From: Bacteroidia bacterium
GTDB lineage: Bacteria; Bacteroidota; Bacteroidia; UKL13-3
Direction of reading: 5' to 3'
Assembly (NCBI GenBank): GCA_025454975.1
Contig: JALONK010000003.1
Coordinates: 838 to 64,837 of the forward strand
DNA length: 64,000 nt
Shown here: piece after piece, positions 2,037 to 51,820 of the stretch
How the letters are laid out: each line of letters starts with the position of its first letter
Position numbering within the stretch: the first letter of the stretch is position 1
The notes under the pieces: model-generated
What the model saw: only the letters and a program-made list of their open reading frames with translations
Databases searched by the model: none
Told to the model about the DNA's origin: nothing
Translations under genes and position numbers: made by a program

Positions 2037-2042
2037 CCAGAA

Positions 2043-4172: not shown

Positions 4173-4173
4173 T

Positions 4174-5634: not shown

Positions 5635-5648
5635 TAATCCCTAACACC

Positions 5649-6917: not shown

Positions 6918-6922
6918 ACAGT

Positions 6923-8263: not shown

Positions 8264-8278
8264 TTTTTAAATTATAGA

Positions 8279-10551: not shown

Positions 10552-10556
10552 CAAAC

Positions 10557-12756: not shown

Positions 12757-12768
12757 GTTATAGCTGCA

Positions 12769-14079: not shown

Positions 14080-14099
14080 ACCCTTTAATAAAAAAGAAT

Positions 14100-17388: not shown

Positions 17389-17573
17389 CCCTCAAATATC
17401 GGTTTTTTCATAATATTTTATATCCGATAATATAATTATAAATCATTTACTCGGATAGTTTCACATAAAAACATGAATTTCTCAAAAGATTAAATTGTAT
17501 TACCTAAACTTAATATTAAGTTCAAATACCATACGGTACTTTGTCAATTAGTAAAATCCTATTAAAGGTTTGT

Positions 17574-24026: not shown

Positions 24027-24220
24027 GTTTTTGAATACTCATTAAAATGAAGCTAAGCTTTAAATCCTGACTTAAGAATGTTAAATTATCTTAACATTGC
24101 AGTTGTTTATACGCTAATACCTCTATTTGTTTAATTATTACACCATTAAAACGAGGTTAACAATTCTCAGATTATTAATAGAAAAAACGCATTAAATTAG
24201 GGGCAAATTTCATATTGAAC

Positions 24221-31760: not shown

Positions 31761-34700
31761 TTAATCATTCTTTAGAACCCGTTTCACTATTTGTTGATTA
31801 TCATGTTGTATAATTAACATATACATACCATCAGCTAATCCGCTTAAATCGAGTTGATCTAATACTGAATTACCTGATGCATATGATATCAGCATCACTT
31901 GTTTTCCGAATGCATCAATTAAGGTAAGTTGTGTTGCACCAGCAGAGGTAAAGTCGAGTTCAACATTTAACATTCCATTTGTAGGATTCGGATATACTTT
32001 CACATCCCCAAATTGTTGAATTGAACTTATACCAATATTAGTTACATTAAATGAATCAGAAATATTTGTACATCCAAAGCTATCAACCATTACTTGATAC
32101 CAACCGTTGTTAGTTATTCGAACTGTACGTTGCGTAGCACCTTGAAGGATAGTTCCATTTCTATACCATTGGTATGAATTTGCAACAGCACTTGTGCTCA
32201 GGCTATCAATATTTCTTGTAATTGTAGGCTTATTCGGATTACGTTTTACTTCAACTAGTGGTGCAGTGGCAGTATCACGAGTACGAGTTACACATCCAAC
32301 CGACGAAGTAAGTACACAACGAATAATATCACCTGCTCCCAAATTTGTTACCAATAATGTTGTACCGGTATCCGATAAAAGTAATCCATTTCTCAACCAT
32401 TGGTAGCGTGGTGTTAAACCTCCATTTTGAGTTGCTGTTGTATATGAAACACTACTTCCTGAACAGATACTTCCTTCTGATGCAAAAATTGAAACAGAAG
32501 GTGTAACAGGATTACTAATGGTAACACCAACTTTTTCAGATGTTGCTGTTGGTCGTGTTTTACATAAAGCATTACTTGTTAAAACTACCCAAACGCTATC
32601 ACCATTGTTCAGAACAGAAGTAATGAATGTATCGTTATTAAACCCAACATCAATACCATTTCGCTTCCATTGAAAAGTTGGAGCCAAACCACCACCGGTA
32701 AATTGTGCCGAGAAAGTGACTTGTGCTCCTGAACAAACAGAAGTTGAGGATGCGGTTACATTAACCGACGGATTAACTGTGGTATTAACATTTACTTTTA
32801 CAACATTAGAAATTAAATTTTGTTGGGTGGCACAAGCATCGTTCACTTGAACCTCCAACCAAACACTGTCATCTAAATGAAGCATATTGGTAATATATGT
32901 ATTTGTATTATTGCCAACATCAAATCCATTTAGCTTCCAACGATAGGTAGCTGCATTACCACCTTGTATTAATGTACCTGTAAAAATAACACTATCACCG
33001 GAACAAATACTGCTCTTATTGGCTGTAACAGTAATTGAAGGATTTAATACAGGTCGAACATTAACTCTTATTCTGTTTGAACTTACTACAGCTGGATTCG
33101 CACAAACAGCATTCGATGTTAAAGTTACCCAAATACTATCTTGTGAAGTTAAATTTGTGAATTGTTGTGATGTGTTATTTCCTCCAAACAGCGAACCATT
33201 TCTGCGCCACTCTAATTGTGGATTGTTACCACCATTTTGCAGGTTAGCTGTAATAGTTACAAGGTTTCCGGCACAAATAGTATCAGAAGAACTACTTAAA
33301 CTAACACTAGGTGTAAGAATTGGATTAACTAAAATTCGTTTGTTATTGGAAACTGCAGTTGGTGTACTTGAACATGATGAAGAACTTGTAACAACAACCC
33401 TAATTGTATCTAATGTACTAGGTGTATAGCTAAATGTTGCACTGTTTGTACCAACATTAGTACCGTTTCGTAACCATTGGTAAGAAGGAGTAGTTCCGGC
33501 ATTTGTTGCAACAGCCGTAAAGGTTATCGAAGTTCCGGCACAAACAGTGTCGGCAGTTGAACTAATTGTAACTGATGGAGAAGTTATAGGTGCAACATTC
33601 ATTATAATTCGGTTCGACAACAATACAGAAGGTGTTGCGCACAAAGTATCTGTTTGTACCCTTAATTGAATACTATCACCTTGCTGTAAAGAAGAACTAC
33701 TAAATGTAGATAAACTGCTAACTGAAACTCCATTCAACAACCACTGATAAGTTGCATTCACACCTGCATTTGTTACATTAGATGTGAAACTAACCGCGGT
33801 TCCAACACAAACAGACGGAGTTAATGTATTAATAGTTGCACTGGTATTTACAACCGGACGAACAGTGACTCCTATTTTATTTGACACCACGGTTTGAGGA
33901 ACTGCACATAATGCATTACTAAGCAATTGCACACTAACGGAATCGCTATTATTCAGATTTGACAAAATGATACTGTCGTTATTATTACCTACCACTGTGC
34001 TGTTTATCCTCCATTGATAAATAGGATTTGTACCTCCATTTATTGAGTTAGCGACAAATAATAATGGAGTATTGGCACATATAGATGTGGAAGCAGTTTG
34101 TATCACAACCGACGGCACCTGAACTGGATTTACCGTTAAAACATGAATAGCAGAAGTATCGGTAGCAGGGCTGGCACAGCCCAACGAACTAATTAAAACA
34201 ACTCGAACTGAATCATTATTAACAGGTGTACTATTCACATAAGATGCAGAATCGCCGCCTACCAATACACCGTTTTTAAACCAACGGTATTGAGGCGAAC
34301 TTCCTCCGTTACTTTGAGTAGCAGTATATGTAACTACATTACCTGCACATACTGCATTAGCGGATGCGCTTATATTAACATCAGGTGCAACTGTTGTCCC
34401 TACATTCATTTTGATTGCATTTGATACAACAATTGATGGAATAGCACACGTTGCAGATGAAGATAAAATAACAACTATCGAATCATTATTTGCCAAAGTT
34501 GAAGATATCAATGTATCACCATTAAAAGGTAAGGTAATTCCATTTCTTCGCCATTGAATTACAGGTGTTGTGCCTCCTCCCGTATAGCTTGCAATCAAAG
34601 TTACAGGCTGTCCTGTACAAATATTTGTTTGAGAAGCTGAAAGAGAAATGGTTGGAGTTACCGTTGGATTGGTGGTAATTACTCGATATGTGGTATCATT

Positions 34701-37700
34701 ACTGAAGATAGTATCATTTCCTGAATTAGGTAAACTTGAATATACAGCTAATTGATAACTACCACCCGGGAACGAATAACTACCTGCATTTATTTGTGAA
34801 CTAACTGCACCAGGTTGTAAATTGCCGTTCCATGTAACTGACCCAGCAAATACACCATCGATGGCCACATTTATATTAGCAGAATTTACTACTTGGTTGC
34901 CATAATTCCTTAACCTAACTACCACGTTCCTATTCCCTCCGCAGAAAATGGTAGTTTGTGGCGAATCAATTGAGCTTATACCCACATCTAATAAACCAAA
35001 ATATTCGTCAGCTCCAATATCTGGTGGTGTAGCTCTTAACTGGCCTTGTATATCAGTTGTAATACCCAAAGTTGGGTCACCTTTTTGGGTTGAAGCATTT
35101 AAAAATAAATTACGTGATGAAGTAAAACCGGTGGTTGTATTAAAACCGTTTGCATTATATCCACCACCATTTATATAGTTTGCATTGGTATAATTAACAG
35201 CGTTTACATTTAATAAATTTATTGAAGCACTGTTATTGTAGTTATTGTAATTAATTACAGTTTGAACAGTTGAAGAAAATAGTGGTAAACCGCTTCCTGT
35301 TGCTGCAGAGTAAGCCAATATATTATTTGCTATTCGTGAATTACCTGAGGATAAAAATGCCATAGCAGAAGATTGATTGCTAGTGGTTGCAAAGTCAAGA
35401 TTAACCGAGTTATGATACACATTCCAATTCGTAGAACTTTGCATAAATAAACCTGATGCATTTGATGCACGGAATCCACCGCCTAACATATTATTATAAA
35501 ATTGATTAGTTGCCGATACTGATCCGGAGCTAATAAATATGTAAGCCCCGTATTGTCCGGCATTAATAATTTGATTGGCATTAATTTGATGAAAGACCCC
35601 GGTATTATTGAAGCATGCAAACAGATAAATACCTGCAGATACTGTATTACCCACAACACGCATATTTATTCTGTTTCCAATCACACGTAAACCTGATGCA
35701 TATTGAATATATAATCCATAATAGAAGGTACTATCAAAATTGTTATTTCTAAACATGTTATTGTTCGAATAAGGCGTTGATGAACTTCTTCCATTAAATA
35801 CTACGCCATAATAACCACTAAAAATTTGATTACTGTCAATCTCACAATTATTTACAAATGCGCCTGTTCCACCAAATGCACTGTTTACATCAGTACTGCT
35901 GCCAATCCAAACACCAATATAGCCTGTATTTGAAGAAGTAGCACCGGTACCAGAGATTCGTATATTACATTGTTTGATGTGAATTTGATTACCTGATCCT
36001 AATATATGAACAGGAGCTCCAAAATTAGCGCCTGTTGATTGGATGGTAATATTTCTTATTCTTACAAACGATGCATTATTTAAACGTAAAGTGTGTGCAG
36101 CATTTATATTATTTGGTGCAAACGTAAGTATTGTAGAATTTAAACTTGTCCCAATAAAACTAACAGTATTAGTATCGTTGGCACCTGTAATAGTTCCGAT
36201 ATTTATTTGTTCGGTATAAGTACCAGGTGACACACTAAAGGTTACATCGTCAGCAATACCTCCGCAGTTAAGCGCTTGAATAGCTGAAGCAAATGAAACA
36301 TAGTTTGTTGCTCCGCTTCCGGCCGGATTGATGGTATAGTTACCACTTAAGGCAGAACATATCGGACCAACAGTAACCGTATCATCAATATTGTTAGCAT
36401 CCGGAACTCCATTTGGTAGCGAACTATAAGCCCTGATTGTGTAAGCAACACCTGTTTGGAAATTAAATGCATTTGTACCATTAAATACTACCAACATGGT
36501 ATCACATGGCTGTATAGTATCCGTAACCTGCAAAGTAACCGGAGTTCCTCCATTCACCTGATATGAAACGTTAGCTTGGCTAACAGCATTATTACCTAAG
36601 TTAGCTAAAATTACTGATATAGGTTGAATGCCTGAAATCAATGGCGAAGTTGGTTGTAAAATAGTAGTAACACCAATATTATTATTAAATCCGGTAATCA
36701 CTTCATCTGCACCAACATCAGGAGGTGATGTACGAGTTTGTCCATCAATGTCCGTTGTAATTGATGCAATAGTAATTCCATTATTACAACCATTACCAAC
36801 ATGTAAATCGGTACGGGAAGCAAATAAAGGATCCCTGCTAAAAGAATTTAGATTAACACCATTGGCTCCAATAAAATTATTGACTCCAAATAATGATCCA
36901 TTAAATACCAATGCATTTTGAGCACCATTTTTATAGTAGTTATTATAATCTAATGCTGATGTGTTACCCGTAGTTGCAGCAAAAAATGGAATACCGTTAG
37001 AATTGGCATTTGATACAGCAAAAATGTTATTACGTACATTTAAATTATTTGAACCGGTTGCATGAAATGCTCCAAACTGTGCATTTGAAATAGTATCACA
37101 ATGAATACTATTAAACCAGATATTCCAACTTGACGACGATTCGGAAAAAATTCCTGCGTGTTGTGTGGTATTTCTAAAACCGCCTCCAATAAAGTTATTA
37201 GCAATTAATGAAGGTGTGATAAACGAACCGCTGGATACAAAAAGATGTATACCATATTGACCCATATTAGAAATCCTGTTACCTGTAATTTCATGAATAC
37301 TGTTATTAGATGTTCCTAAAACAAAGAGGTAGGCTCCTACACTATTTACATCCCCTGTTGGCGACATATTAATTGTGTTGTTTCTAAACTTCAACTCATT
37401 TGCATTATACAAATACAAGCCATAATAAATAGGTTGATTAAAGGTATTTCGATTAAAGTTATTAGCTAAACTTTGCTGGTTGTAACTAAACACCGAAGCG
37501 TAACCTCCGTTAATTTGATTAGAATCTAAGGTTATACTATCAACCCTAATGGTAGTGAACAAACTGTTTAAAGAACCACTCACAACAACATTTACATAAT
37601 TATTATTATTTGCGGTAGCACCTATGCCTGTTATTTCGATAACATTATTACTCAAGGTAATATTTCTACTTCCGTTAAAAATATGTACCGGCCATGCAAA

Positions 37701-40700
37701 AGTTGCTCCCGAATTTCTAATAGTTAAATTACGTAAGGTTACATATTGAGCATTATGAAACCTTACAGTTTGTCGTGCATTGGTAGTTGTTGCACCAAAA
37801 GTTAAAATTGCAGTTGAAGCATTAATACCATCAAATGTAATTCTATTGGTGAATGATGCTCCCGCAATTGCAGGAATAACTAATTGTTCGGTATAAGTAC
37901 CGGCTGCCACATTAAAATTCACCGGACCCGAAACGCCGGCGCACTGCAATGCACTAATAGCGGCTTGAAATGAGGTATAGTTTGTTGCTCCGGTACCTGT
38001 TGGATTAATAGTATAAGTCCCTTGCATAGCAATACATAAAGCCGGAGTTGTAAATGTATCATTGATATTATTTATATCAACACTATCATTCGGTAAAGTG
38101 GTAAATACTTGAATGGTATAATTGACACCTGATAAGAAGTTAAATTGATTTGTACCGGTGAAGGTAACAATTGCAGTATCACAAGGAGCAATGGTATCAT
38201 TAAAGACTAAACTAACCGGAGCTCCACCATTAACCCTATAATTAACCGTGCCTTTATAAATGATGTTAGTGCCAAAGTTTTTAACTATAACTCTAATATC
38301 TTTTAAACCTGCTATAAGCGGAAGTGTAGGCTCTAATAAAGTAAGGATACCTATATCATTATTAGCATCTGTAACCTCATCAGCTCCTATATCTCCGAAA
38401 ATTCCTCTTGGTTGACCATCAATATCAGTAAGCACTCCTAATGAATCTCCATTAAAACATCCATCAATTGTGCGAAGATTTAAAGCACTTCTAAATCCTG
38501 GCTCACGATTAAATGAATTTAAGTTGTATCCTCCTCCTCCGATATAATTAACAGGAGTATAGAAGGTGCTCACAAAAATTAAATTATCATTATTGGCGAT
38601 GCCTGTTTTAAAATAATTATTAAAATTTAGACCTCCTGTAGCTAGGTTAGTTGTGTTTGAATAAAAAGCCAAGCCTTGCCCACCGGTAGCTGTATATGCA
38701 AGATGATTGTTTCTTACACGAACATTAGCTGTTGAACCTGCTAAATACAAGGATGAATAAATTGTTGAACTTGTAGCGAAATCAAGATTTACAGAGTTGT
38801 GATAAATATTCCAATTAGAGCTGTTTACCAAATAAATTCCATTGGCAAAAGATGATTGAAATCCACCACCAATCATATTATTATACAACTTTGCAGGATT
38901 CGTTGCATTCCCATTTACTCCGCTTAAAAAGATACCATTGGTTCCCGGATTAGTAATTATATTACCATCAATCTCAAACAAAGCTTGAGCAATATATGGA
39001 GCACTATTAGATATTGAAATTGCCTGGCTATTCGGACTTACACCTGCGCCTCTCAAATTCATTACATTTCTGTTTAGTTGAAAACCTTCAATCGAATTCA
39101 TATAAACACCATAATAAAAGGCGTTTTCCATATTATTAAATCGAACAAGAATTGCTGTATCATTTGTTGTTGTATTACCCCAAACAGAAACTGCGTAATA
39201 GCCATTCCTGAATTGATTAGAATCAATAACAAAATCCGAAAAACTACCCGAACTCGTTACAGTTGTATTTGATGCCGAAGCTACAAATCCCGCAAATCCG
39301 GTTGATGTACTTGAAGGAGCAACTGTTCCTGCATTATCTATAATACAATTTTTCACCGTGATGAATCTAGATGTAGATAAAGCATGAATAGCCCATCCAA
39401 AATTTACACCTGTAGTTCGAATGGTTAAATTATTTAAGATGTAAAACTGAGACGAATCAATCCTGATGGTGTGTCGCGCTGTTGTAGAAGTGGCATTAAA
39501 ACTTAGAATTCTTGTTGAAGCATTACCCGCACCTCCGTTAAAGGTAATAGTATTAATTGCTGAGGCACCTGATATGCTTGGTAATTGTATTTGTTCATTA
39601 TAAGTACCGGCAGCAACATTAAATTCAACAGGACCGGTAATACCTGCACAACGCATAGCATCAATTGCTTCTGTAAAACTAACAAAATTAGTAACCCCTG
39701 TTCCACTTGCATTGATAGTATAAGTTCCATTTAAAGGTCCACATAAGGAAACTCTTAAAGTATCATTTGCCCTATTATTATCAACTCCTCCATTCGGATT
39801 TGAAGTGAATACGCTTATTAGTGAACGACCGGAAGGGAAGTTAAATGGAGTCGTAAAATTTAATGTGGTTGTGCTGCAAGGCTGTAACGTTAATCCGGTA
39901 AATGTTTGTGTTACGTTTCCTGCTCCATTAATGTTGTAAGTTAAGGTAATGGCATTTATTACATTACCACCAAAATTACGAACTGAGATAGCAACTGTTT
40001 GACTACCGGCATTAATTGGTTGTAATGGAGATACAACACCAATAACTCCTGCATCCAAAGTAGCTGCTTCGTCTGCACCAATATCAGGAGGGTTGTTTCT
40101 AACTTGACCATCAATATCGGTTGTAACTGTAGGAATAAATATACCTTTAAAACAACCACCGGCACGTAAGTTTAAATTATTTATGAAACCGGGATTCACA
40201 TTCATTGAATTCGCATTATAACCACCGCCGTTAATGTAGTTTGATGTATTATAAACGGTTGAACCAGCAAACAACAAGCTTGTAGATGATGCATTGAAAT
40301 AGTTATTATAGTTTAATGCTGTTAAGGTTTGATCAGAATAGAATGGCAAACCTGTACCTGAAGTTGCACTATAAATTAAATGATTATTCCTTACATCATT
40401 ATTAGACGAGATAAAGCTAATATGTAAAGCCGCATTTTGATTTGAAGTAGTTGCTCTATCTAAATTTATTGTGTTATGCCAAACATCCCAAAATGTAGCA
40501 ATCTGCATAAATACTCCAAAAGAAGCATTGTTTTGAAACCCTCCTCCTATCATATTATTAACAAAACGTCCGCGAGCAGTTGTTGAATTTTGAGCGGATG
40601 AAATAAACGCTCCATATCTGCCACTTTGAATAATGCGGTTCCCTTCTACAATGTGTCGTTGTCCTGTATTGTTTATAGCATTTTGTAAATTATAGCCTAT

Positions 40701-43700: not shown

Positions 43701-46700
43701 AATAAATGCACCTGTTGGAACATTCTGAACGAATACAGGTAACCCTACACCTGCAGAAACAAAGATGTTGTTTCTGACATCAATATTACTTCCACTTGAT
43801 AAATAAAATGCACCAAATTGATTACTAGTTGTGGTAAAATCAACATTTACACTGTTATGGAAAAAGTCGAACGACTGAACACTACTGATAAACATGCCAT
43901 AACTATTTGTACTTCTAAATCCACCACCAATCATGTTATTTGCACATAAACTTTTTGTTGTGCCACCACCACTGGTTATGTAAATACCTCCCTGTCCTGC
44001 ATTGGTAATTTTATTTGCTAATATCTGATGTGACGTTCCACTTAAACTATTAAAGCAATTAATCATATACAATCCATATCCATTTAAGCTTCCTGTTGTA
44101 CGTAACTCAATTTCATTATTGTTAAAAGTTAGTCCTTCATAATAATAAAAATATGATCCATACAAGAATGCATTCAACATACGATTACGTCGGTATTGAT
44201 GTTGAGTTGAGTATGGTGTATTAAAAGTACCATATGCATAAAGGTTGTAATATCCCGAGTTGAAAGTGTTACTATCAATTTCTAAAAAGTCAACTTTACT
44301 CATGCTGGTGGGAGATGTAATATTTGTTGAATTCGAAATTAACATCCCAATAAATGATGTTGATGTTGAACTCGCCCCCGTTGTAATATTGATATTACAA
44401 TTTTTTACAGCAGCATTATGACTCGAACCACTTATAAATACAGCAGCGCCATTCGAACTTCCGGATGCATTAATGGTTAAATTTCTAAGCTGTATAAATG
44501 GTGAATTGTCAATCCTTACTGTCCAGAAGTTAGTTGTAGTATTAGCAGCAGTATCAATAATTCTTGTTGATGCATTACCTGTTCCACCATCAAAAACAAT
44601 TGGTCGAACTGCAGAAGCACCATTTATTGCAGGGATATTAACTTGCTCGTTATAGGTACCGGCTGCTACCTGAAATGTTACACGTCCGGATATGCCAGCA
44701 GTTATTAATGCTTGCACTGCCGCTCTAAAACTTGTATAATTTGTTATTCCTGTTCCTGAAGAATTTATTGTATAAACTCCATTAAGTCGTGGAATGCGCG
44801 GACCAATGATAATACTGTCGTTAATTTGATTGTTATCCGGAACACCATTTGGATTATGAATAAACACTTTAAATGTTGTACTAATTCCACCTGCTATTAA
44901 TGCTCGTTTACTTCCCGACATAATTATCCTTAGCGTGTCATTAGGACCTAAATTAATACCGGTCAATAAGGTATCTTGAAGATTTAGGTTATTTACAGTA
45001 TGACGTAAGTTAAAGGAATTGATAGTAGTTGACCCAAAATTTCTAACTAAAGCAATAACATCACGTGTACCACTTGATAGAGAAGTATCAGGAGAAATTA
45101 ATTGAACAATACCTAAATCGTCACTAAAACCTGAACCTATTTCATAGGCTCCAATATCAGGAGGATTATTTCTAAATGAGTCTTGTATGTCATTGAATAC
45201 CGAACTGATTTGAATTCCATTATTATTTGTTAGTGTAGGAATCAATTCTTCACCAACTGTATAACCCGAATTATTACTGATTGAATTTAATCCGCCAAAG
45301 TTTTGATAATTTAAAGGTGTATAATTAATTCCTGCAACTTGAATCAAATTAGTAGGTGTACCGGCTTTAAAATAATTATTGAAATTTAATGCAGGCGTAA
45401 AGGTTGTTCCACTAACCGATCTAAATGGTAAATTATTAACTCCCGATAACGAATCGGTGACAGCTAAATTATTATTTCTAAAATCAATCCCTGTACCTGA
45501 TGCAAAATATGCGGCAGCCGAAGTGGTTGAACCCACTGCATTATTACGCAGCAAAACAGAATTAAAGTAAATATCCCAGTTATTAGATGATGTAAAGTGG
45601 ATACCTGAAGGTGCTGTATTTCTAAATGTTCCTCCAATGCTATTATTAATAAGCTGGGCCCTGGTTGTTGTAGCAGTTGATGAATTTACCTGAATTCCAA
45701 ACTGGCCGGCATTAATTATTCTATTTCTATTAACTTCAGTAAAACCTGTTGCATTACTAATTACAGATGTTAAAAATATACCCCACGATGTGGTTGATAC
45801 CGTTCTCATCCTAATGGTATTCGTATTCAATTTCGGTGCTATAATATTACTTACATACAAACCGTAATTGTCGGCATTGGTTAATAAATTATTCCTGAAA
45901 ATAACATTATTGTTGGTACCATTACCGGAAAAATAAACATTAGAAAAACCGCCTGATAATCTACAGTTTTCAATGAGTAAATTATTGAATGTAGCAGTTG
46001 ATGTCGGAGAAGTTTGACTTCCACTAGCTACTAATCCTATAAAATTATTAGATGTTCCATTAAAACCCGTACCTTGAATTTGAACATTAATATTTCGTAA
46101 CACAAGTTGATTGGTATTACCAAATATATGAATAGGCCAAGCTAAGGTTGCACCGGTACCTCTAATGGTTAAATTTTGCATGGTAATAAATCTTGTGTTA
46201 TTAAATAACACAGTATGTCGAGCACCATTTAATGTTGCCGCGAAGGTTATAATTCGTGTTGAATCATTACCTAATCCACCATCAAAAACAATAGAATTAG
46301 TTTGCGAAATACCCGGTATATCACCAAACTCCAGTTGGCCTGAATAAGTTCCTTGTAATACATTAAATGTTACAGGTCCCGAAATACCTCCACAATTTAA
46401 CGCCTGCACCGCAGAGGTAAATGTGGTAAAAGTAGTAGGGCCTGCTACGCCTCCACTATCAATGGTATATGCACCATTTAATGAAACACATAATGGCCCG
46501 TTTGTTATGGTATCATTTAATAAATTACCGTCGGTTGATGAATTTGGATTTGAACCATATATCGTAATGCTATAGGTAAAACCCGGTAAAAAATTAAACC
46601 TTTGATCAGTTCCACCCGCACCGCTGGTTGCATTAAACTCAGCCACTGCAGAATCGCAAGGGTTTAAGTTCCCGGTCCAAGTGGTACTTTGAACAGCCCC

Positions 46701-49700
46701 CCCATTTATGCTGTAATGAATCGAAGCATTTGTTATTGCGGTATTTCCATTATTTCTAATTAAAACGCGAATATTTTGCAAACCACCTTGCAAAGGAATA
46801 CTAGGTTGTATAAGTTCTGTTACAGCCAAATCATTGGCTACAGCATTAATATTTTCATAAGCACCAATATCAGGTGGATTACTGCGCAGATTACCTTCTA
46901 TATCAGTGGTAACACTGCTTATCCATTCGCCATGATTACAACGTAGCGCAGATCTTAGATTGATATTTGATAAATAAGCAGGATATACATTTACTGAATT
47001 AACATTAAATCCTGCCAATCCTTTATAATTCGCAGAACTAAGATTATTTCCATTCCATTGAATTAATCGCAATTGATTTGGCTTATAATAATTGTTATAG
47101 TTGAGTGAAGTATATTGATTGGTATTATCACTCCAAAAAGCAAAAGCTGTTGAAGCAACATTGGTTACAGCCAAATTATTGTTTCTAACATCTAGTCCCG
47201 TGTTATTACTTTGAATACGTAAAGCAGCAGACGTTTGTGTTGTTGAAATATTATCCATCAACACACTATTAAACCATACATCAACATTTATATTAAAAAA
47301 GTTCAAATAAATACCTGATGCGTCTGTACTTCTAAATGTTCCACCTATCACATTATTCATAACCCTTGCACGAAGATTTCCGGTACCTCCTTGCATATAA
47401 TATATATTTAAACCGTATTGACCGGCGTGCATTACCTGATTGCCTATGATTTCTTTACCATAAGCGCCATTTGACAAAGGAAAGTTAGCGAAAATTCCAC
47501 TTGAATTTATCGACCCGGTAATGCGCATATTAACCGTATTATGATTCATGCGAAATGCTCGAGTGTAATAGGCATAAATACCGTTTTGATTTGCATTATT
47601 GATGGTATTCCAACGGATATTTATATCTTCACTATTCTGCCCATATAACCAAATACCATTATTACCACCGGTAATACTGTTACTATCAATTTCTATATTA
47701 CTAAATGTGGCACTGTTAAATAAGGATGTAGAACTGTTGGATGCAACTATACCGGTAAAATTATCACTAGTTGCATTTACACCATTACCACCAACAAAAT
47801 CAACAATACAGTTTTTGATTTTTATATTATTAACATTATTACCGAATAAAAATATTGGCCACGCAAAAGCTGTACCGGTTCCTCTAATAGTTAAATTTCT
47901 CAAAGTAACAAATGATGAATTATTTAACCTTATGGTGTGTGATTCTGCTTGTGAAGTTGCTGCGAAGGTTATTATACGTGATGCCGCATTGCCTTGACCA
48001 CCATCAAAGGTAATCGTATTCGTAGCAGAAGCTCCTGCAATTTGTCTGAGCGTTATCTGCTCGTTATACGGTGCAGTGCCCAGTACATTAAATAATACCG
48101 GACCGATAACACCTCCACTGTTTAAAGCAGCCGCAGCACTTGTAAATGAAACAAAGTTTGTTGGCCCCGCAGGTGAAGCCTGATCAATTGTATACGTACC
48201 TGTTAAACCCGAAAATATCAAAGGCACTGAGGAAGTATCATTAAATATATTTCCATCTGTTAATCCATTAGGTAAATCAGAAAATGCTTTAATTTCATAA
48301 GGTGTGTTAGGTAAAAAGTTAAACTGAGCACCGGCTGAGAATGTAAACGTTGTTGACGCACAAGGAGCAATGCTACCTGTGAATGGGAGGGTTACCGGAG
48401 TAGCACCATTTATAATATAACTTACATTAGCAGAAGTGATTGTATTAGAGCCATAATTCCTTAATGTTACTACTATATTTTGTAAACCGGGTGAAAATGG
48501 CAGAACAGGCGCTGTTAGTACTTCAACACCTAAATCATTAGTAACCGGTATTACCTCAAATGCTCCTAAATCAGGGGCAGTAGTACTTCTAGAAACTGAG
48601 TTAATATCAGTTGTAACAGAAGCTATAGCTGTTCCATTGTTACAAGGATTAAATGGCATTAAGTTAGTAGAAGATATAAATCCGGGATTTCTACTGATTG
48701 AATTTGCGTTATGGTTATTATTATTTATAAAATTACCTACTGTTAATGGTGTACCACCATTCCAAATGATTGGGTCATTAGTATTAGCTCCTGCCTTAAA
48801 ATAATTATTGAAGTTTAATGCCGCTGATGAGGCAACAGCAAAATTATACCCATTAGGCATAAATAATGTCCACGCGGTTGAGTTATTCCCAGTAACAGCA
48901 AAAATATTATTTCGTATATCCAATAATGTTGAACCTGTTGTACAGCAATTACCAATAAATAAAGATGCATTTTGCGTTCCGGTTGTATTTAAGTCTAAAT
49001 TTACCGAGTTGTGAAAAACATCCCAATTGTAAGAATTACCGGTAAAATTTATACCAACGGCAGATACTGTATTTCTAAATCCCCCACCAACTGAATTATT
49101 AACTAATAAACTTCTTGTGGTTGCCTGTCCGGTTGAACTTGAAATATTTATACCAATACTTCCAGCTTGTATTATCCTATTTGAGATGATTTGATGCGCG
49201 TTACTCGTGGTTGTTGAGGTATTTGTGAAATTAATACCTATACCATTAATATTACCTAGTGACAATAAATTTATAGTATTGCGATTTACTTGAGCAGCAG
49301 CTATACTCTGTACCTGAACACCTATAGAAAATGTACTGTCAATTTTATTCCCTCTTATGAATATACCTGTATTGCTTCCGTTACCTAAAAAATAATTACC
49401 AAACCCTCCTAAAATTGTATTACTATCTAATTCAACATTAGTAATTGAGGTACCTGCACCGGTTGGACTAGCAGTACTGTTGTTCATAACCACACCACAA
49501 AAGTTGGTTGAGTTGTGAACAGTAAATGCTGTAGTAAAACGTATTATACAATTTCTAACAATAGTATTGGAGGATATATTAAAAATATGTAAAGGCCATC
49601 CAAAACCTGTACTTCCCGATTGAATTGTCAAATTCATTAACCGAACAAACTGCTGGTTGTTTATTCTTACAGTAAAGGCGGTTGCCAATGATGTTGAACC

Positions 49701-50063
49701 ACTGAATGTTATTATTCTTGTGGAAGCATTACCTTGACCACCATTAAATGTTATGGTATTGGTTGCACTAACACCTGTTATCCCTGTAATATCCAACTGA
49801 CCGGTGTAGGTACCGGCTGCAACATTAAATAATACAGCGCCTGTAACTCCGGCACCGTTTGGAGTTCCTCCATCCGATCTGGTTCCTAACCGCATATCAC
49901 TTATGGCTGATGCGAAGTCAAGATAATTTGTTGAACTTGGTGCTTGAGAGGAATCAATAGTGTAGGTTCCATTTAAAGCAGCTTTTGCCGAATAAGAAAA
50001 AATTAAGAAAAAGAACAATAAAGAAAATGTGCTTTTTACACAAAAAGTTAGGCGTTTTTTCAT
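31761..50063 (-). CDS. Giant T9SS type A cargo (6,100 aa): 9x(parallel beta-helix + DIGAxE cap + CARDB-like), 9x Ig-like, CTD
   Basis: Uninterrupted 18.3-kb ORF; ATG 50063 gives signal peptide MKKRLTFCVKSTFSLLFFFLIFSYSAKA|A; repeats visible; C-terminal VKVYPNPTNG...IVKRVLK type A CTD. Confidence 0.92.
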   Translation of the reverse strand: MKKRLTFCVKSTFSLLFFFLIFSYSAKAALNGTYTIDSSQAPSSTNYLDFASAISDMRLGTRSDGGTPNGAGVTGAVLFNVAAGTYTGQLDITGITGVSATNTITFNGGQGNASTRIITFSGSTSLATAFTVRINNQQFVRLMNLTIQSGSTGFGWPLHIFNISSNTIVRNCIIRFTTAFTVHNSTNFCGVVMNNSTASPTGAGTSITNVELDSNTILGGFGNYFLGNGSNTGIFIRGNKIDSTFSIGVQVQSIAAAQVNRNTINLLSLGNINGIGINFTNTSTTTSNAHQIISNRIIQAGSIGINISSSTGQATTRSLLVNNSVGGGFRNTVSAVGINFTGNSYNWDVFHNSVNLDLNTTGTQNASLFIGNCCTTGSTLLDIRNNIFAVTGNNSTAWTLFMPNGYNFAVASSAALNFNNYFKAGANTNDPIIWNGGTPLTVGNFINNNNHNANSISRNPGFISSTNLMPFNPCNNGTAIASVTTDINSVSRSTTAPDLGAFEVIPVTNDLGVEVLTAPVLPFSPGLQNIVVTLRNYGSNTITSANVSYIINGATPVTLPFTGSIAPCASTTFTFSAGAQFNFLPNTPYEIKAFSDLPNGLTDGNIFNDTSSVPLIFSGLTGTYTIDQASPAGPTNFVSFTSAAAALNSGGVIGPVLFNVLGTAPYNEQITLRQIAGASATNTITFDGGQGNAASRIITFAATSQAESHTIRLNNSSFVTLRNLTIRGTGTAFAWPIFLFGNNVNNIKIKNCIVDFVGGNGVNATSDNFTGIVASNSSTSLFNSATFSNIEIDSNSITGGNNGIWLYGQNSEDINIRWNTINNANQNGIYAYYTRAFRMNHNTVNMRITGSINSSGIFANFPLSNGAYGKEIIGNQVMHAGQYGLNIYYMQGGTGNLRARVMNNVIGGTFRSTDASGIYLNFFNINVDVWFNSVLMDNISTTQTSAALRIQSNNTGLDVRNNNLAVTNVASTAFAFWSDNTNQYTSLNYNNYYKPNQLRLIQWNGNNLSSANYKGLAGFNVNSVNVYPAYLSNINLRSALRCNHGEWISSVTTDIEGNLRSNPPDIGAYENINAVANDLAVTELIQPSIPLQGGLQNIRVLIRNNGNTAITNASIHYSINGGAVQSTTWTGNLNPCDSAVAEFNATSGAGGTDQRFNFLPGFTYSITIYGSNPNSSTDGNLLNDTITNGPLCVSLNGAYTIDSGGVAGPTTFTTFTSAVQALNCGGISGPVTFNVLQGTYSGQLEFGDIPGISQTNSIVFDGGLGNDSTRIITFAATLNGARHTVLFNNTRFITMQNLTIRGTGATLAWPIHIFGNTNQLVLRNINVQIQGTGFNGTSNNFIGLVASGSQTSPTSTATFNNLLIENCRLSGGFSNVYFSGNGTNNNVIFRNNLLTNADNYGLYVSNIIAPKLNTNTIRMRTVSTTSWGIFLTSVISNATGFTEVNRNRIINAGQFGIQVNSSTATTTRAQLINNSIGGTFRNTAPSGIHFTSSNNWDIYFNSVLLRNNAVGSTTSAAAYFASGTGIDFRNNNLAVTDSLSGVNNLPFRSVSGTTFTPALNFNNYFKAGTPTNLIQVAGINYTPLNYQNFGGLNSISNNSGYTVGEELIPTLTNNNGIQISSVFNDIQDSFRNNPPDIGAYEIGSGFSDDLGIVQLISPDTSLSSGTRDVIALVRNFGSTTINSFNLRHTVNNLNLQDTLLTGINLGPNDTLRIIMSGSKRALIAGGISTTFKVFIHNPNGVPDNNQINDSIIIGPRIPRLNGVYTINSSGTGITNYTSFRAAVQALITAGISGRVTFQVAAGTYNEQVNIPAINGASAVRPIVFDGGTGNASTRIIDTAANTTTNFWTVRIDNSPFIQLRNLTINASGSSNGAAVFISGSSHNAAVKNCNINITTGASSTSTSFIGMLISNSTNITSPTSMSKVDFLEIDSNTFNSGYYNLYAYGTFNTPYSTQHQYRRNRMLNAFLYGSYFYYYEGLTFNNNEIELRTTGSLNGYGLYMINCFNSLSGTSHQILANKITNAGQGGIYITSGGGTTKSLCANNMIGGGFRSTNSYGMFISSVQSFDFFHNSVNVDFTTTSNQFGAFYLSSGSNIDVRNNIFVSAGVGLPVFVQNVPTGAFILNQNIYFRQGSASGNQLLFIQPTTYTQQNFIGGGGYNSVALNINPGFVSNTDLHLTNACAGRTVRLSNVTTDYDGNVRSSLTNYGADEATAFLNDVGVESIAPFSSGSQNVRVVIRNFGSNTLTSATVAYRVNGGLPRIQAWSGSLNPCDTTTVVFTGANQFTFLSGVTYTIEAYTTSPNLQPDPDITNDTAILGPTCVFLSGNYTINPSGSGANNFTSFTNALTALTCGGVSGPVVFNVAAGTYNEQLNIGLINGASAINTITFNGDSASNRIIEFNTTLNTAGFVVKFENTSFVTLRNLTIRSTGSSLGGAVQIANNSNNVYVSNCILDVAGGAPTSTATSFIGALVSGSTNIFSPSTGLINSADIYIDSCIIRSGYYGIYVYGNTSTYTNNIFTRGNRIDSSFFYGAFYQFTDRLVIDRNTVNMRQTGSNNSAGIYLSNCFAQSTNIITITNNQVYHAGQYGFYIWFAYNNASSNRSRLINNVVGGNFRSNQANALLMQYGYYWDVWFNTFVVSQSTNAESNSVASVSNCLQLDIRNNQFIQAASQSSGLPFQAATANQITTLNHNNYFNSAASTLLSIVGTSYNNLNYINGGGFNANSRNVNPAFVSNTSLNLTNACIDGVTIPTVTNDVNGNPRLSPPDIGAYEFTGGINNDIGITFLNSPFIPFSPGSYPINVRLNNFGANNITTAVLKYSINNSAPVTFSYTGNLAPCDTISLTISTTNFTFVSGVSYQIKVWSETPNAQPDGNRNNDTLTVQTCPMLPAGNYTINPSGTGINNFISFTQAAGVINCGGIAGPVVFTVSPGVYTEQVNITNVSGVSAINTITFDGVNPSLVTLQFTPTINTSAHTIRITNTPNVIVRNMTIISNGSNFGNPVHISGTSSNTNITKNIITFGSSAFGSTNLGFIGVLINNENNVQNPMGNGINANNIVIDSNIIIHGYYGICFSGITTSPYANGLVVRANQLDSNTFYGIFINYASGSSTLNNVINMRTGQLNSIGYNLQNAINNTGQRHIVEGNRIIQSGRYGAFISSAQNSTTARGRFVNNMIGGGFQNNASFGVFMQIATFWDVWHNTINLDRATTSNQNAALHISFISSNNDVRNNHLIYSATSGTGLPFYSDQTLTALNYNNYFNASSTSLLFAGSTVYNTSNYINGGGYNANSMNVNPGFINNLNLRAGGCFKGIFIPTVTTDIDGQVRNNPPDIGADEAATLDAGVIGVVSPLQPINAGSQTVAISVRNFGGNVINAITLTYNINGAGNVTQTFTGLTLQPCSTTTLNFTTPFNFPSGRSLISVFTSNPNGGVDNNRANDTLRVSLCGPLNGTYTINASGTGVTNFVSFTEAIDAMRCAGITGPVEFNVAAGTYNEQIQLPSISGASAINTITFNGGAGNASTRILSFNATSTTARHTIRIDSSQFYILNNLTIRTTGVNFGWAIHALSTSRFITVKNCIIDNAGTVAPSSTSTGFAGFVASASNTTVTSSGSFSDFVIDSNQFRNGYYAVSVWGNTTTNDTAILVRFNNMENAFYYGVYMNSIEGFQLNRNVMNLRGAGVSPNSQAISISNSAPYIAQALFEIDGNIITNPGTNGIFLSGVNGNATNPAKLYNNMIGGGFQSSFANGIYLVNSSNWNIYHNSVNLDFATSSTIYSSLYLAGSTANVRVRNNHLAYTATGGQGLAFYSNTTNLATGGLNFNNYFKTGIANNDNLIFVSTFYTPVNYIGGGGYNLNSFNREPGFRSALNLRTIDGCFNGDSLGVLTDIDGQPRGIFGDIGADEVTDANNDIGILTLLEPTLPLIAGLKDIRVIVKNFGTNIIYKGTVNYRVNGGAPVSLVFNDTIAPCDTAIVTFTGTNQFNFLSGVNYTIQVFTTLPNDSVDINNINDTFTTPALCIAMQGTYTINPTGTGATNYTSFQAAISALQCAGVSGPVNFNVAAGTYTEQLVIPAIAGASFTNRITFDGINASTAILTFGATTTNARQTVRFHNAQYVTLRNLTIRNSGATFAWPVHIFNGSRNITLSNNVIEITGIGATANNNNYVNVVVSGSLNSLFTTIRVDSITLDSNQINGGYASVFSYNQQSLANNFNRNTFNQPIYYGLYLYNANELKFRNNTINMSPTGDVNSVGAYLFVLGTSNNSIHEITGNRISNMGQYGIHLFVSSGSFITPSLIANNFIGGGFRNTTQHAGIFSESSSSWNIWFNSIHCDTISNAQFGAFHATGSNNLNVRNNIFAVSNANSNGIPFFAATTGNTSALDYNNYYKNGAQNALVFNGSLFGVNNFIGANGVNLNSFSRDPLFASRTDLHVGNGCNNGITIASITTDIDGQTRTSPPDVGADEVITGFNNNIGVTTILQPTSPLISGIQPISVILANLGNNAVSQANVSYQVNGGTPVTLQVTDTIQPCDTMLVVFNGTNAFNFQTGVAYTIRAYSSLPNGVPDANNIDDTVTVGPICSALSGNYTINPAGSGATNYVSFASAIQALNCGGIADDVTFSVSPGTYTEQINIGTITGANDTNTVSFIGTSLNSTILTFAPNNINAAHTLRLNNASFVRIRNITIQSTGANFGAPVHILGSGNQIHIKQCNIRISGTGATSSNTGYIGVWIGSSTDVNSAFGGTGAFVNNCEIDSNQIFSGYYGVVFNGRSSSTPYSNNNMFRNNNFDSTFYYGLYIQYASGLRVIGNRINMRVVGNTVSAGIYLFACFNNTGVFHQINANQIINAGQYGAYIFISSGSVSATNQFYNNMLGGGFRASNASGLFMQSSTNWNVYHNSVNLDFATTSNQSSAMAFLSSGNSRIANNILAYSAATGSGLPLFSSTVQTVINYNNYNNSASINLLNVNAVNYTNANYINGGGYNANGFNTTTGFTSSRNLFLNASTQKGDPTLGITTDIQGQLRATPPDIGADEYFGLLDVGISSIDSPQTTIFCGGNRNVVVRLRNYGNQVVNSANINVAIDGVFAGSVTWNGNLQPGAVSSQINAGSYSFPGGSYQLAVYSSLPNSGNDTIFSNDTTYRVITTNPTVTPTISLSASQTNICTGQPVTLIASYTGGGTTPVIQWRRNGITLPFNGDTLISSTLANNDSIVVILSSSATCAIPSIVVSNAIKMNVGTTVAPDVNISASANAVCAGNVVTYTATQSNGGSSPQYRWFKNGVLVGGDSASYVNSTPVNNDSVRVVLISSLGCASPATDTSAIHVLTVNPVQVPSVVIQTASTSICANTPLLFVANSINGGTNPIYQWRINSTVVGNNNDSIILSNLNNSDSVSVQLLSNALCAVPQTVVSNKIGVTVRPVVNTSATINTLTPSVCVGTAVSFTSNVTNAGVNATYQWLLNGVSVSSLSTFSSSSLQQGDSIQLRVQTDTLCATPSVLLSNRIIMNVAPITSPSVTISSTADTVCAGTSITFTAVATNAGTTPSYQWLRNGTNVGTNSATFSYTPSTLDTIRVVVTSSSSCSSTPTAVSNNKRILVNPILTPSVSLSSSSDTICAGNLVTITANLQNGGNNPQLEWRRNGSLFGGNNTSQQFTNLTSQDSIWVTLTSNAVCANPAVVSSNRIRVNVRPVLNPSITVTANKSSICSGDSVIFTGTLIQGGNAATYRWKLNGFDVGNNTNTYITNMLHLDDSVWLEVQVNDACATQQNLISNVVKVNVNTTVNPSVNVTASSTSVCSGAQVTFSAQFTGGGLAPTFQWKRNGIDVGFNNDTFITSVLNNGDSVWVVLTSNALCKTRPTATSEKVGVTISNPVTPSVSIFASEGSICSGSSVSYTTATQNGGLTPRYQWLRNGLLLSDTGTTLLVTNLGAGDIIRCVLTSSVGCVTRTRDTATAPLVEVKRNPNKPTITRNIDSLSTSAVANSYQWYRNGTILQGATQRTVRITNNGWYQVMVDSFGCTNISDSFNVTNIGISSIQQFGDVKVYPNPTNGMLNVELDFTSAGATQLTLIDAFGKQVMLISYASGNSVLDQLDLSGLADGMYMLIIQHDNQQIVKRVLKND
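32240..34665 (-). repeat. Nine tandem ~88-90-aa Ig-like repeats
   Basis: Each reads PSV.I......(I/V)C.G..V.F......GG..P.(Y/F)QW..NG...D.(I/V).V.L.S...C; nine copies counted. Confidence 0.92.
34670..49976 (-). repeat. Nine tandem ~1.69-kb (~563-aa) beta-helix/CARDB units
   Basis: (P)DIGA(D/Y/F)E-type motif at ~48560, 46861, 45148, 43444, 41761, 40075, 38382, 36708, 35011 (spacing about 1.67-1.71 kb). Each unit opens with G.YTI...NF.SF..A..AL..G..G.V.F.V..GTY.EQ. Confidence 0.95.
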
Positions 50064-50248
50064 ACGGTACTCATTAATATTTAAAAATAAAATCACCACA
50101 TACCCGCAGCACAACAAGGATTCATAAGGTTTTATTGTGTCTAAAAAGGCAAACTCGAAATTTCAATAAAAATCTAACCTAATTAATTTTAAATTAAAAA
50201 GCAAGTGGATTTTAATTTAACTAGCTGAATAAAATCATCATAAATTAA

Positions 50249-50297: not shown

Positions 50298-50753
50298 ATG
50301 TCGAAGCTAAATCAGAACTACACAGCGTTACAAAATGAAGACGAACCCTTCTCTATAACTATCAGAAAATTGGTAAAAAAATATGATGAAAAGGTTAGTT
50401 TAGAATTAAGCAACTTACCTATAAATAAGTATTTTTATGTGTTGTTTTTAATTAGTAACCGTGAGCTAATCTCGCAACAATGTATTGCCGACTGTCTTCA
50501 AATTGATAAAGCGGCAATTAAAAGGATTGTTGACTATCTATGTAAATCGAAGCAAGTGGTTAGAAGAAAACATCCTGATGATAAAAGAATGTATTTATTA
50601 TCACCAACAACTCAAGGTAAATTATCAGCTAAAAAAATCCATCAATCATATAAAAATTTGAATAACGTATTGTTTAAGAATGTTTCTAGTAAAGAAAAAG
50701 AGATGCTGGAAAAGGTATTACAAAAGATGGAATTAAACTTAAATGCACTATAA
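50298..50753 (+). CDS. MarR family transcriptional regulator
   Basis: 151 aa; SQQCIADCLQIDKAAIKRIVDYL HTH and HPDDKR wing motif. Confidence 0.93.
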   Translation: MSKLNQNYTALQNEDEPFSITIRKLVKKYDEKVSLELSNLPINKYFYVLFLISNRELISQQCIADCLQIDKAAIKRIVDYLCKSKQVVRRKHPDDKRMYLLSPTTQGKLSAKKIHQSYKNLNNVLFKNVSSKEKEMLEKVLQKMELNLNAL

Positions 50754-50764
50754 TCAGCTTAATA

Positions 50765-51817: not shown

Positions 51818-51820
51818 CAG

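What the first reader, a model, noticed from the sequence alone, without database searches (positions are those of the whole stretch)
34670..49976. Cysteines co-vary in strict pairs across the nine units, giving a readable inter-domain disulfide map
Seen in the translation. Pair A is the Cys ahead of the TTDIDG..DIGA cap (NPC, LRC, NAC, NAC, GGC, DGC, NGC) and the PC Cys in the following CARDB: both present in units 1,2,4,5,6,7,8 and both absent in 3 and 9. Pair B is the CARDB-exit linker Cys (GPLC, GPTC, QTC, SLC, ALC, PIC) and the AL.C.G helix Cys of the next unit: both present at junctions 2/3, 4/5, 5/6, 6/7, 7/8, 8/9, both absent at 1/2 and 3/4, and unit 1 (no preceding linker) also lacks the helix Cys. 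No orphan occurs in 17 comparisons. Inference: disulfide staples lock each CARDB to the beta-helices on both sides, making a rigid or redox-tunable rod.
Basis: partly seen in the sequence, partly recalled or inferred. Interest (0 to 1): 0.78.

Follow-up and report, generated by a model that had tools for sequence, protein, structure and literature searches.

The report
Paired cysteines staple giant surface protein modules
A 6118-residue secreted surface protein of an uncultured Bacteroidota bacterium is built of nine beta-helix-plus-CARDB modules whose cysteines appear and disappear strictly in pairs, a pattern that hundreds of related modules share and that is best read as ordinary structural disulfide bonds at the module junctions, not as a new mechanism.

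Summary
One ORF (window 31761-50117, minus strand) encodes a signal peptide, nine beta-helix+CARDB units, about nine Ig-like repeats and a T9SS sorting domain. Pair A Cys are present in units 1, 2, 4-8 and absent in 3 and 9. Pair B Cys are present at junctions 2/3 and 4/5-8/9 and absent at 1/2 and 3/4.

In 1163 homologous units from 224 proteins the coupling holds:
- Pair A: 166 both, about 6 true singles, about 615 neither, about 16 concerted changes on a tree.
- CARDB-to-helix junctions: 270 of 734 have no Cys, 432 have exactly one donor plus one acceptor Cys, and 9 have a lone Cys.

Pair A is inter-domain. Pair B is a 31-32-residue loop tying the linker to the next helix's N-cap, not the CARDB body. 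AF2 global confidence fell from 0.78 to 0.55 for two units, so a rigid rod is unproven. Redox tuning has no support. About 20 other Cys in the units, including C5059, are unpaired.

The parts
31761..50117 (-). Giant ORF, 6118 codons as listed. The likely start is ATG at codon 19; JGI calls 6112 aa.
49980..50063 (-). Probable Sec signal peptide, MKKRLTF...SYSAKA|A (aa 19-46)
   Evidence: by inspection of the translation; no predictor was run
48231..50000 (-). Unit 1 (beta-helix + CARDB), aa 40-629. Pair A present, no pair B. It has an 11-residue insertion at the N-cap helix end.
46506..48230 (-). Unit 2, aa 630-1204. Pair A present; junction 1/2 has no Cys.
44811..46505 (-). Unit 3, aa 1205-1769. 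Pair B present, pair A absent.
43125..44810 (-). Unit 4, aa 1770-2331. Pair A present; junction 3/4 has no Cys.
41430..43124 (-). Unit 5, aa 2332-2896. Pairs A and B present.
39759..41429 (-). Unit 6, aa 2897-3453. Pairs A and B present.
38052..39758 (-). Unit 7, aa 3454-4022. Pairs A and B present. Modelled with AF2.
36375..38051 (-). Unit 8, aa 4023-4581. Pairs A and B present.
34692..36374 (-). Unit 9, aa 4582-5142. Pair B present, pair A absent. Its CARDB carries the lone C5059.
48360..48644 (-). Pair A, unit 1: codons C492...C586
46656..46940 (-). Pair A, unit 2: C1060...C1154
43254..43526 (-). Pair A, unit 4: C2198...C2288
41556..41840 (-). Pair A, unit 5: C2760...C2854
39876..40154 (-). 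Pair A, unit 6: C3322...C3414
38181..38459 (-). Pair A, unit 7: C3887...C3979
36504..36788 (-). Pair A, unit 8: C4444...C4538
46392..46490 (-). Pair B, junction 2/3: C1210...C1242
43014..43109 (-). Pair B, junction 4/5: C2337...C2368
41319..41417 (-). Pair B, junction 5/6: C2901...C2933
39648..39743 (-). Pair B, junction 6/7: C3459...C3490
37941..38036 (-). Pair B, junction 7/8: C4028...C4059
36264..36359 (-). Pair B, junction 8/9: C4587...C4618
34941..34943 (-). C5059, a lone Cys in the A-B loop of the last CARDB (profile column 478). In homologues this column is the donor of the CARDB-to-next-helix pair (type C).
32268..34670 (-). About nine Ig-like repeats (Ig_3 / Ig_7 CHU_C-associated / PKD_3). 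Each has two Cys 56-57 residues apart, 49 in the last repeat.
31776..31997 (-). T9SS type A C-terminal sorting domain
   Evidence: PF18962 46.2 bits (cut-off 27); TIGR04183 41.5 bits (cut-off 23)

Best explanation
The ORF encodes a giant cell-surface protein. [quoted passage not shown] It consists of nine tandem modules, each a right-handed beta-helix followed by a CARDB (Ig-like) domain, then Ig-like repeats and the sorting domain. The two sets of co-varying cysteines are structural disulfides, formed in the oxidising periplasm before export of the folded protein. Pair A ties the irregular C-terminal cap of a beta-helix to the loop of its own CARDB that faces that helix. Pair B closes a 31-32-residue loop that pins the linker leaving the previous CARDB onto the C-terminal end of the N-cap alpha-helix of the next beta-helix. 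Together they stabilise the caps and shorten the tethers at module junctions. They probably add thermal and proteolytic stability and reduce hinge freedom. They are optional reinforcements, not essential elements. Shown: the pairs exist and the partner assignment follows from covariation. The domain architecture and the secretion signals are also shown. Inferred: that the pairs are oxidised, that they are within bonding distance, and what they do mechanically.
For: Within the window all 17 comparisons agree. The orthologue P0075 is collinear and 49.7% identical. It keeps 26/26 paired Cys and gains none at the empty sites, but keeps only 12/20 of the other Cys (Fisher p=4.8e-4). Across 1163 units from 224 proteins, pair A shows 166 both, 8 apparent singles (2 are alignment shifts) and 613-618 neither, phi 0.97. 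Fitch parsimony on a tree built with the Cys columns masked gives about 16 shared changes out of 19-20 (84%). Unrelated Cys columns share 14-38%. Pair B shows CC 153, singles 20, with 49 of 56-57 changes shared. The census of 734 CARDB-to-helix junctions gives 270 with no Cys, 432 with one donor plus one acceptor, and 9 with a lone Cys. Homologues use alternative donors for the same N-cap acceptor site: the CARDB A-B loop m477/478 pairs with m41 (193 both, 0 cases of 478 alone), and F-strand m541-546 pairs with m37. The N-cap therefore lies against the preceding CARDB. AF2 gives pLDDT 92.6 and places B2 in the last turn of the cap helix, B1 3 residues before strand 1, and A2 in the loop after CARDB strand 4, the end nearest its own helix. 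The T9SS sorting domain is above cut-off. T9SS exports folded cargo via the periplasm (PMC9251779). Periplasmic disulfides are documented in Bacteroidota (PMC12365241).
Against: pTM drops to 0.55 for the two-unit construct, so stiffening is not demonstrated. The staples are missing from units 3 and 9, from junctions 1/2 and 3/4, and from entire homologues (P0084). The helix-end Cys (m37) stands alone in about a dozen homologous units that follow an Ig-like domain instead of a CARDB. C5059 and 68/89 terminal CARDBs carry a lone Cys in a 'donor' column, so not every Cys at these sites need be bonded.
Confidence: 0.72

Rival explanations
1. The co-occurrence is inherited by descent. Units with both Cys are simply copies of an ancestor that had both, and no bond is implied.
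For: The units arose by tandem duplication. The per-unit pattern [-A][-A][B-][-A][BA]n[B-] is shared by orthologues, so the four 'absences' in the window are old events, few in number. The within-window p of about 1e-3 ignores ancestry.
Against: With the Cys columns masked from the tree, about 16 (A), about 49 (B) and about 61 (C) changes hit both partners on the same branch. That is 84-97% shared, against 14-38% for unrelated Cys columns. Singles are about 1-3% of units or junctions. Paired Cys are far better conserved than other Cys in the orthologue.
Confidence: 0.04
2. The disulfides form a redox-tunable mechanical switch. Reduction in the environment loosens the rod and changes reach or adhesion.
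For: The pairs sit at module junctions. Junction staple type varies from module to module and from protein to protein.
Against: No feature of labile or allosteric disulfides was tested. No redox partner is encoded nearby. Many junctions and whole homologues do without staples. The extracellular freshwater milieu is oxidising (inference).
Confidence: 0.05
3. The paired Cys do something other than form intramolecular disulfides: metal coordination, intermolecular cross-links between copies, or a different pairing such as A2 with the next B1.
For: The lone conserved Cys in terminal CARDBs shows that some Cys in this family have no intramolecular partner. By its entry title, the CARDB 3idu is a di-metal complex.
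Against: Two thiols alone make a poor metal site. A and B occur independently of each other: unit 1 has A without B, units 3 and 9 have B without A, and phi between the sets is 0.2-0.35. This excludes cross-pairing. The exact 1:1 donor:acceptor count at junctions fits intramolecular pairs.
Confidence: 0.05

Closest known systems
Very large T9SS-exported surface proteins of Bacteroidota, e.g. SprB of Flavobacterium johnsoniae (6497 aa)
   Same: Sec signal peptide, size of about 6000 aa, tandem repeats, and a C-terminal T9SS sorting domain (PMC9251779).
   Different: No SprB-type repeat family was reported by Pfam. The repeat here is a 565-590-aa beta-helix+CARDB module. No link to gliding was examined.
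Giant repetitive adhesins stiffened at domain junctions by Ca2+ (RTX/BIg type, e.g. the Marinomonas ice-binding adhesin, SiiE) - own knowledge
   Same: The concept is shared: a long extender made of tandem modules whose junctions are reinforced.
   Different: The reinforcement proposed here is covalent (cystine) and optional per junction. The secretion route is T9SS, not T1SS. No RTX or BIg families were detected.
CARDB domain (PF07705; PDB 3idu / 2kl6, Pyrococcus PF1109)
   Same: The Pfam hit is above cut-off. Foldseek gives prob 1.0 and TM 0.64-0.72 on the target.
   Different: Only about 19% identity. In HMMER's alignment to 2kl6/3idu the A2 column is K (...SLGPKEEK...), not Cys. Here the domain is embedded between beta-helices.
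Pectin-lyase-fold beta-helix enzymes and phage tailspikes (best Foldseek hit GH136 lacto-N-biosidase LnbX, 5gqc)
   Same: Right-handed three-stranded beta-helix with an N-terminal capping alpha-helix. PF13229 is above cut-off.
   Different: TM is only 0.2-0.5 with 8-14% identity. No enzyme family HMM matched. Catalytic residues were not examined. Nine copies in tandem suggest a structural or binding role.

Membership tests
T9SS type A cargo protein | C-terminal sorting domain (Por_Secre_tail / TIGR04183) above the curated cut-off | tested here: met
   PF18962 46.2 bits vs 27; TIGR04183 41.5 bits vs 23
T9SS type A cargo protein | N-terminal Sec signal peptide | tested here: met
   MKKRLTF + hydrophobic core + AKA|A, by inspection only; no predictor was available
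T9SS type A cargo protein | T9SS machinery present in the genome; secretion shown | not testable with these tools
   Only a 64-kb window of a metagenome contig was available. Two neighbouring ORFs also carry the sorting domain.
CARDB domain (PF07705) | HMM score above gathering threshold and Ig-like sandwich fold | tested here: met
   36.4 bits vs 22.7 (only the best copy scores individually). Foldseek to 3idu/2kl6 gives prob 1.0, TMt 0.64-0.72.
Right-handed parallel beta-helix (PF13229, pectin lyase fold) | HMM above threshold; repeating three-strand rungs | tested here: met
   31.3 bits vs 25.9. The AF2 strand pattern has pLDDT 92.6. All top Foldseek hits are beta-helix proteins.
Structural intramolecular disulfide | The two Cys are gained, kept and lost together across homologues | tested here: met
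Structural intramolecular disulfide | The protein folds in an oxidising compartment | tested here: inconclusive
   Inferred from the signal peptide plus the T9SS domain and from the literature. No Dsb-type gene was sought in the genome.
Structural intramolecular disulfide | SG-SG about 2.0-2.1 A (Cbeta-Cbeta below about 4.5 A) in a structure or confident model | not testable with these tools
   Models m7169a246a741 and mc5565c0bc850 exist, but coordinates are not exposed.
Structural intramolecular disulfide | Cystine peptides seen without reduction | not testable with these tools
   This is an experiment.
Glycoside hydrolase GH136 / polysaccharide lyase / tailspike depolymerase | Sequence-family membership and catalytic residues | tested here: not met
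   No such family appears in Pfam or NCBIfam. PDB sequence search finds nothing below E 0.2. Only generic fold similarity, TM <=0.5. Catalytic residues were not examined.
RTX / BIg Ca2+-stiffened giant adhesin | RTX repeats, T1SS signal, BIg domains | tested here: not met
   None were reported by Pfam.

The most novel reading that the evidence does not exclude
The family carries a combinatorial 'staple code'. There are four interchangeable disulfide types (A, B, C, D). Types B, C and D are mutually exclusive alternatives at a given junction (one donor, one acceptor), and pair A never shares a unit with a type-C donor Cys (0/745). On this reading the types are chosen module by module to set the stiffness of each junction of a micrometre-scale surface fibre. 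The lone, conserved Cys on the last CARDB (C5059 here; 68/89 terminal CARDBs) would be a free thiol used for covalent intermolecular coupling or for redox sensing.
Probability: 0.12. Interest if true: 0.7.

Novelty: new variant of a known kind. Interest (0 to 1): 0.42.

Why it matters
The module (beta-helix + CARDB) defines a very large, unstudied family. 12945 representative proteins match at E<=1e-3, and many are 3000-7800 aa with 3-16 modules. No paper in the searched library describes it. The cysteine covariation gives residue-level contact restraints for free. It shows which face of the CARDB meets its own helix and which meets the next helix, and that the N-cap helix end is the docking site. 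That helps model these fibres, design stable fragments for structure work, and choose Cys-to-Ser mutants to test how junction stiffness affects function. It does not reveal a new biochemical principle, since structural disulfides in exported proteins are ordinary.

Tried and rejected
- The first homologous-protein run timed out. The repeat worked, but it returned only proteins of 1078 aa or fewer.
I spent the single genome-contig scan on the ribonucleotide reductase to place the organism.
- A profile search of PDB sequences found nothing below E 0.2. Foldseek gave only generic beta-helix and CARDB matches, so no solved structure shows the equivalent Cys.
- I looked for model files to measure distances and found none exposed.
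- I searched for a partner of C5059 and of the terminal-CARDB Cys in three places: same-unit columns, downstream domains, and Cys counts. No consistent partner emerged.
- I considered reading the offsets of linker and cap Cys as a strand-register ladder. I dropped this because the offsets are not monotonic and depend on alignment indels.
- I considered m138 ('NC', in 532 units) as a partner of the orphan helix Cys. There is no association.
- Cross-pairing between sets A and B is rejected because each occurs without the other.
- NCBIfam has no model for the unit.

Full report
**What is there**

The finding lies inside a single open reading frame, window 31761-50117 on the minus strand, 6118 codons. 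The likely start is the ATG at codon 19 (MKKRLTF..., a typical Sec signal peptide ending AKA|A). The JGI gene call on the source contig gives 6112 residues.

The architecture, from Pfam and NCBIfam:
- nine units of 562-590 residues, each a right-handed beta-helix (PF13229, 31.3 bits against a cut-off of 25.9) followed by a CARDB domain (PF07705, 36.4 against 22.7);
- about nine Ig-like repeats of roughly 90 residues (Ig_3, Ig_7 'CHU_C associated', PKD_3), each with two Cys 56-57 residues apart (49 in the last repeat);
- a T9SS type A sorting domain (PF18962 46.2 bits against 27; TIGR04183 41.5 against 23).

The window comes from a 204.5-kb freshwater-type metagenome contig (JGI 3300037462). 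Its class II ribonucleotide reductase is 91% identical to that of a Bacteroidota MAG. It is 67-73% identical to cultured Chitinophagaceae and Mucilaginibacter. The gene sits in ordinary chromosomal context: a dcw cell-division cluster, two more T9SS giants, and a MarR/RND efflux operon.

**Check of the observation**

- Pair A: C492/586, 1060/1154, 2198/2288, 2760/2854, 3322/3414, 3887/3979, 4444/4538. Both columns are empty in units 3 and 9.
- Pair B: C1210/1242, 2337/2368, 2901/2933, 3459/3490, 4028/4059, 4587/4618. Both columns are empty at junctions 1/2 and 3/4 and in unit 1.

Two qualifications apply.
- The units hold 20 more Cys (for example the 'NC' column, and C391/C392). These have no partner column, so 'no orphan' is true only for the four chosen columns.
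- The two Cys of pair B are only 31-32 residues apart. The two Cys of pair A are 90-94 apart.

**Test in homologues**

A word-indexed search gave 73 relatives, the best 39% identical. An exhaustive profile search gave 12945 proteins at E<=1e-3. The best 150 are giants of 1650-7800 residues with 3-16 units. With an HMM of the nine units I extracted 1163 units from 224 proteins.

Pair A (columns 428 and 522):
- 166 units have both Cys, 8 have one and 613-618 have neither. Two of the eight singles are one-column alignment shifts. Phi is 0.97.
- I built a UPGMA tree from 682 complete units with all Cys columns masked. On it, A1 and A2 each change 19-20 times, and about 16 of those changes fall on the same branch (84%).
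- Pairs of unrelated Cys columns share 14-38% of their changes.

Pair B:
- 153 units have both Cys, 20 have one and 433 have neither.
- 49 of 56-57 changes are shared.

The collinear orthologue P0075 (49.7% identity over 6114 residues):
- It keeps all 26 paired Cys and gains none at the empty sites.
- It keeps only 12 of the 20 other Cys and has about 24 private ones. Fisher p is 4.8e-4.

Shared ancestry therefore cannot explain the coupling.

The homologues reveal a broader rule for the CARDB-to-helix junction. Of 734 junctions:
- 270 have no Cys.
- 432 have exactly one 'donor' and one 'acceptor'.
- Only 9 have a lone Cys.

The acceptor is always at the end of the N-cap alpha-helix or in the loop after it (columns 37, 38, 41 or 42). 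The donor takes one of three forms:
- Type B: the linker. This is the window's type, 195 junctions.
- Type C: the A-B loop of the preceding CARDB (columns 477/478) pairing with column 41. This covers 221 junctions; in the pairwise test there were 193 with both and none with 478 alone.
- Type D: the F strand of the preceding CARDB (columns 541-546) pairing with column 37, 15 junctions.

At a given junction the three types are mutually exclusive alternatives. Types C and D are true CARDB-body-to-next-helix links. They show that the preceding CARDB packs against the N-cap of the next helix.

Pair A and a column-476-479 Cys never occur in the same unit: 0 with both, against 167 and 263 with one, and 315 with neither. 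Some proteins use one type throughout (P0087, P0088 and P0091 are all type C). Some mix types (P0079, P0086, P0090). Some have none (P0084).

Two classes of exception remain:
- About a dozen helices follow an Ig-like domain instead of a CARDB and carry a lone column-37 Cys.
- Terminal CARDBs carry a lone Cys at 476-479 in 68 of 89 cases. The window's C5059 is one of them and is conserved in the orthologues.

**Structure**

AF2 on aa 3454-4160 (unit 7 plus the cap and first rungs of unit 8) gave mean pLDDT 92.6 and pTM 0.78. In this model:
- B2 is in the last turn of the cap helix (H28-38).
- B1 is three residues before strand 1.
- A1 lies in the irregular C-terminal cap (r401-468).
- A2 lies in the loop after the fourth CARDB strand. 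By strand alternation this is the end of the sandwich nearest its own helix, and the A-B loop (column 478) is at the far end.

This agrees with the partner assignment from covariation, but it is an inference from topology, not a distance.

The two-unit construct (aa 3454-4650) gave pLDDT 88.2 but pTM only 0.55. Local folds are confident, but AF2 does not commit to the overall arrangement of two modules, so 'rigid rod' is not supported by this measure.

Foldseek against the PDB found only generic beta-helix enzymes and tailspikes, plus the isolated CARDB domain:
- GH136 LnbX 5gqc, with TM 0.38 on the query;
- rhamnogalacturonan lyase, pectin methylesterases and CBA120 tailspikes;
- the CARDB domain 3idu/2kl6, with TM 0.64-0.72 on the target.

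A profile search of PDB sequences found nothing below E 0.2.

**How it most likely works**

The protein crosses the inner membrane by Sec, folds in the periplasm and is exported folded by the T9SS. The route and the capacity for cargo of about 6500 aa are stated in PMC9251779. Periplasmic disulfides in Bacteroidota are documented for PorK-PorG (PMC12365241).

The paired Cys are best explained as structural disulfides. Pair A clamps the helix C-cap to its CARDB. Pair B pins the incoming linker to the N-cap of the next helix. They would stabilise the helix caps, which are the weak ends of beta-solenoids (general knowledge). They would also shorten the junction tethers.

They are optional, being missing at four places here and in whole relatives. 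I therefore read them as reinforcement, not as an essential element. My confidence in the disulfide reading is about 0.7. Stiffening of the whole fibre is plausible but unproven. Redox tuning is speculation.

**Comparison with what is known**

The protein meets the tested criteria for a T9SS type A cargo, and for CARDB and beta-helix domains. It is not a member of any enzyme family by sequence.

It works like other giant repetitive surface proteins whose junctions are reinforced (the Ca2+-stiffened RTX/BIg adhesins; own knowledge). It differs from them in using cystines, and it is exported by a different system.

Searches of the paper library found no description of this module family or of its cysteine pattern.

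**Verdict**

This is a real, statistically solid pattern in a large uncharacterised family. Novelty: a new variant of a known kind (disulfide-reinforced tandem-module surface protein). Interest is moderate.

Noticed in passing
window 34941-34943 (C5059, unit 9 CARDB): A lone Cys in the CARDB A-B loop of the last module, conserved in orthologues P0074/75/76/82. Family-wide, 68 of 89 terminal CARDBs have such a lone Cys, although at internal junctions this column always pairs with the next helix. It may be a free thiol or an intermolecular link.
   Followed up: partly
window ~49848-49889 (aa 77-90 of unit 1): The first (N-terminal, presumably cell-distal) unit has an 11-residue insertion, GTRSDGGTPNGAG, exactly at the N-cap helix end where internal units carry the acceptor Cys. 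Similar insertions occur in 37 of 90 first units of homologues and in none of 779 internal units.
   Followed up: partly
homologues (units from P0074-P0223); profile columns 428/522 vs 476-479: Pair A and the type-C donor Cys never occur in the same unit (0 of 745). A further intra-helix pair, columns 67/132, also co-varies (23 both, 2+2 single).
   Followed up: partly
window 34692-50000, C-terminal end of every CARDB (P556, N557, D561, D567 of the unit alignment): An invariant PN...D.....D motif, the last D followed by T/S ('NDT'), sits just before each linker. It resembles the acidic, metal-binding end of CARDB (3idu is a di-metal complex by title). The D-[ST]-x tripeptide fits the Bacteroidota O-glycosylation sequon in 7 of 9 units (own knowledge).
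   Followed up: no
window 17541-24026 (+) and 24215-31021 (+): Two more very large ORFs (2161 and 2268 aa) with T9SS sorting domains, fn3/YDG and PATR hits lie next to the giant gene. That makes three consecutive T9SS cargo genes.
   Followed up: no
window 34692-50000 (nine units): Extreme composition: N 14%, T 10.6%, G 10%, S 9.8%, but K 0.6% and E 1.1%. The fibre is nearly uncharged and Asn/Thr-rich.
   Followed up: no
window 48942-48947 (C391-C392) and 49497-49550 (C190...C207), unit 1: A vicinal Cys-Cys and a further Cys pair in the first beta-helix are conserved in orthologue P0075 but are not part of pairs A or B.
   Followed up: no
window 744-15809 (+); 50298-56216 (+); 16435-17388 (-): A dcw cell-division and peptidoglycan cluster (MraW, PBP, Mur ligase, MraY, FtsW, MurG, FtsA, FtsZ). 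A MarR regulator plus RND efflux operon is divergent from the giant gene. There is also a Fic-domain gene.
   Followed up: no
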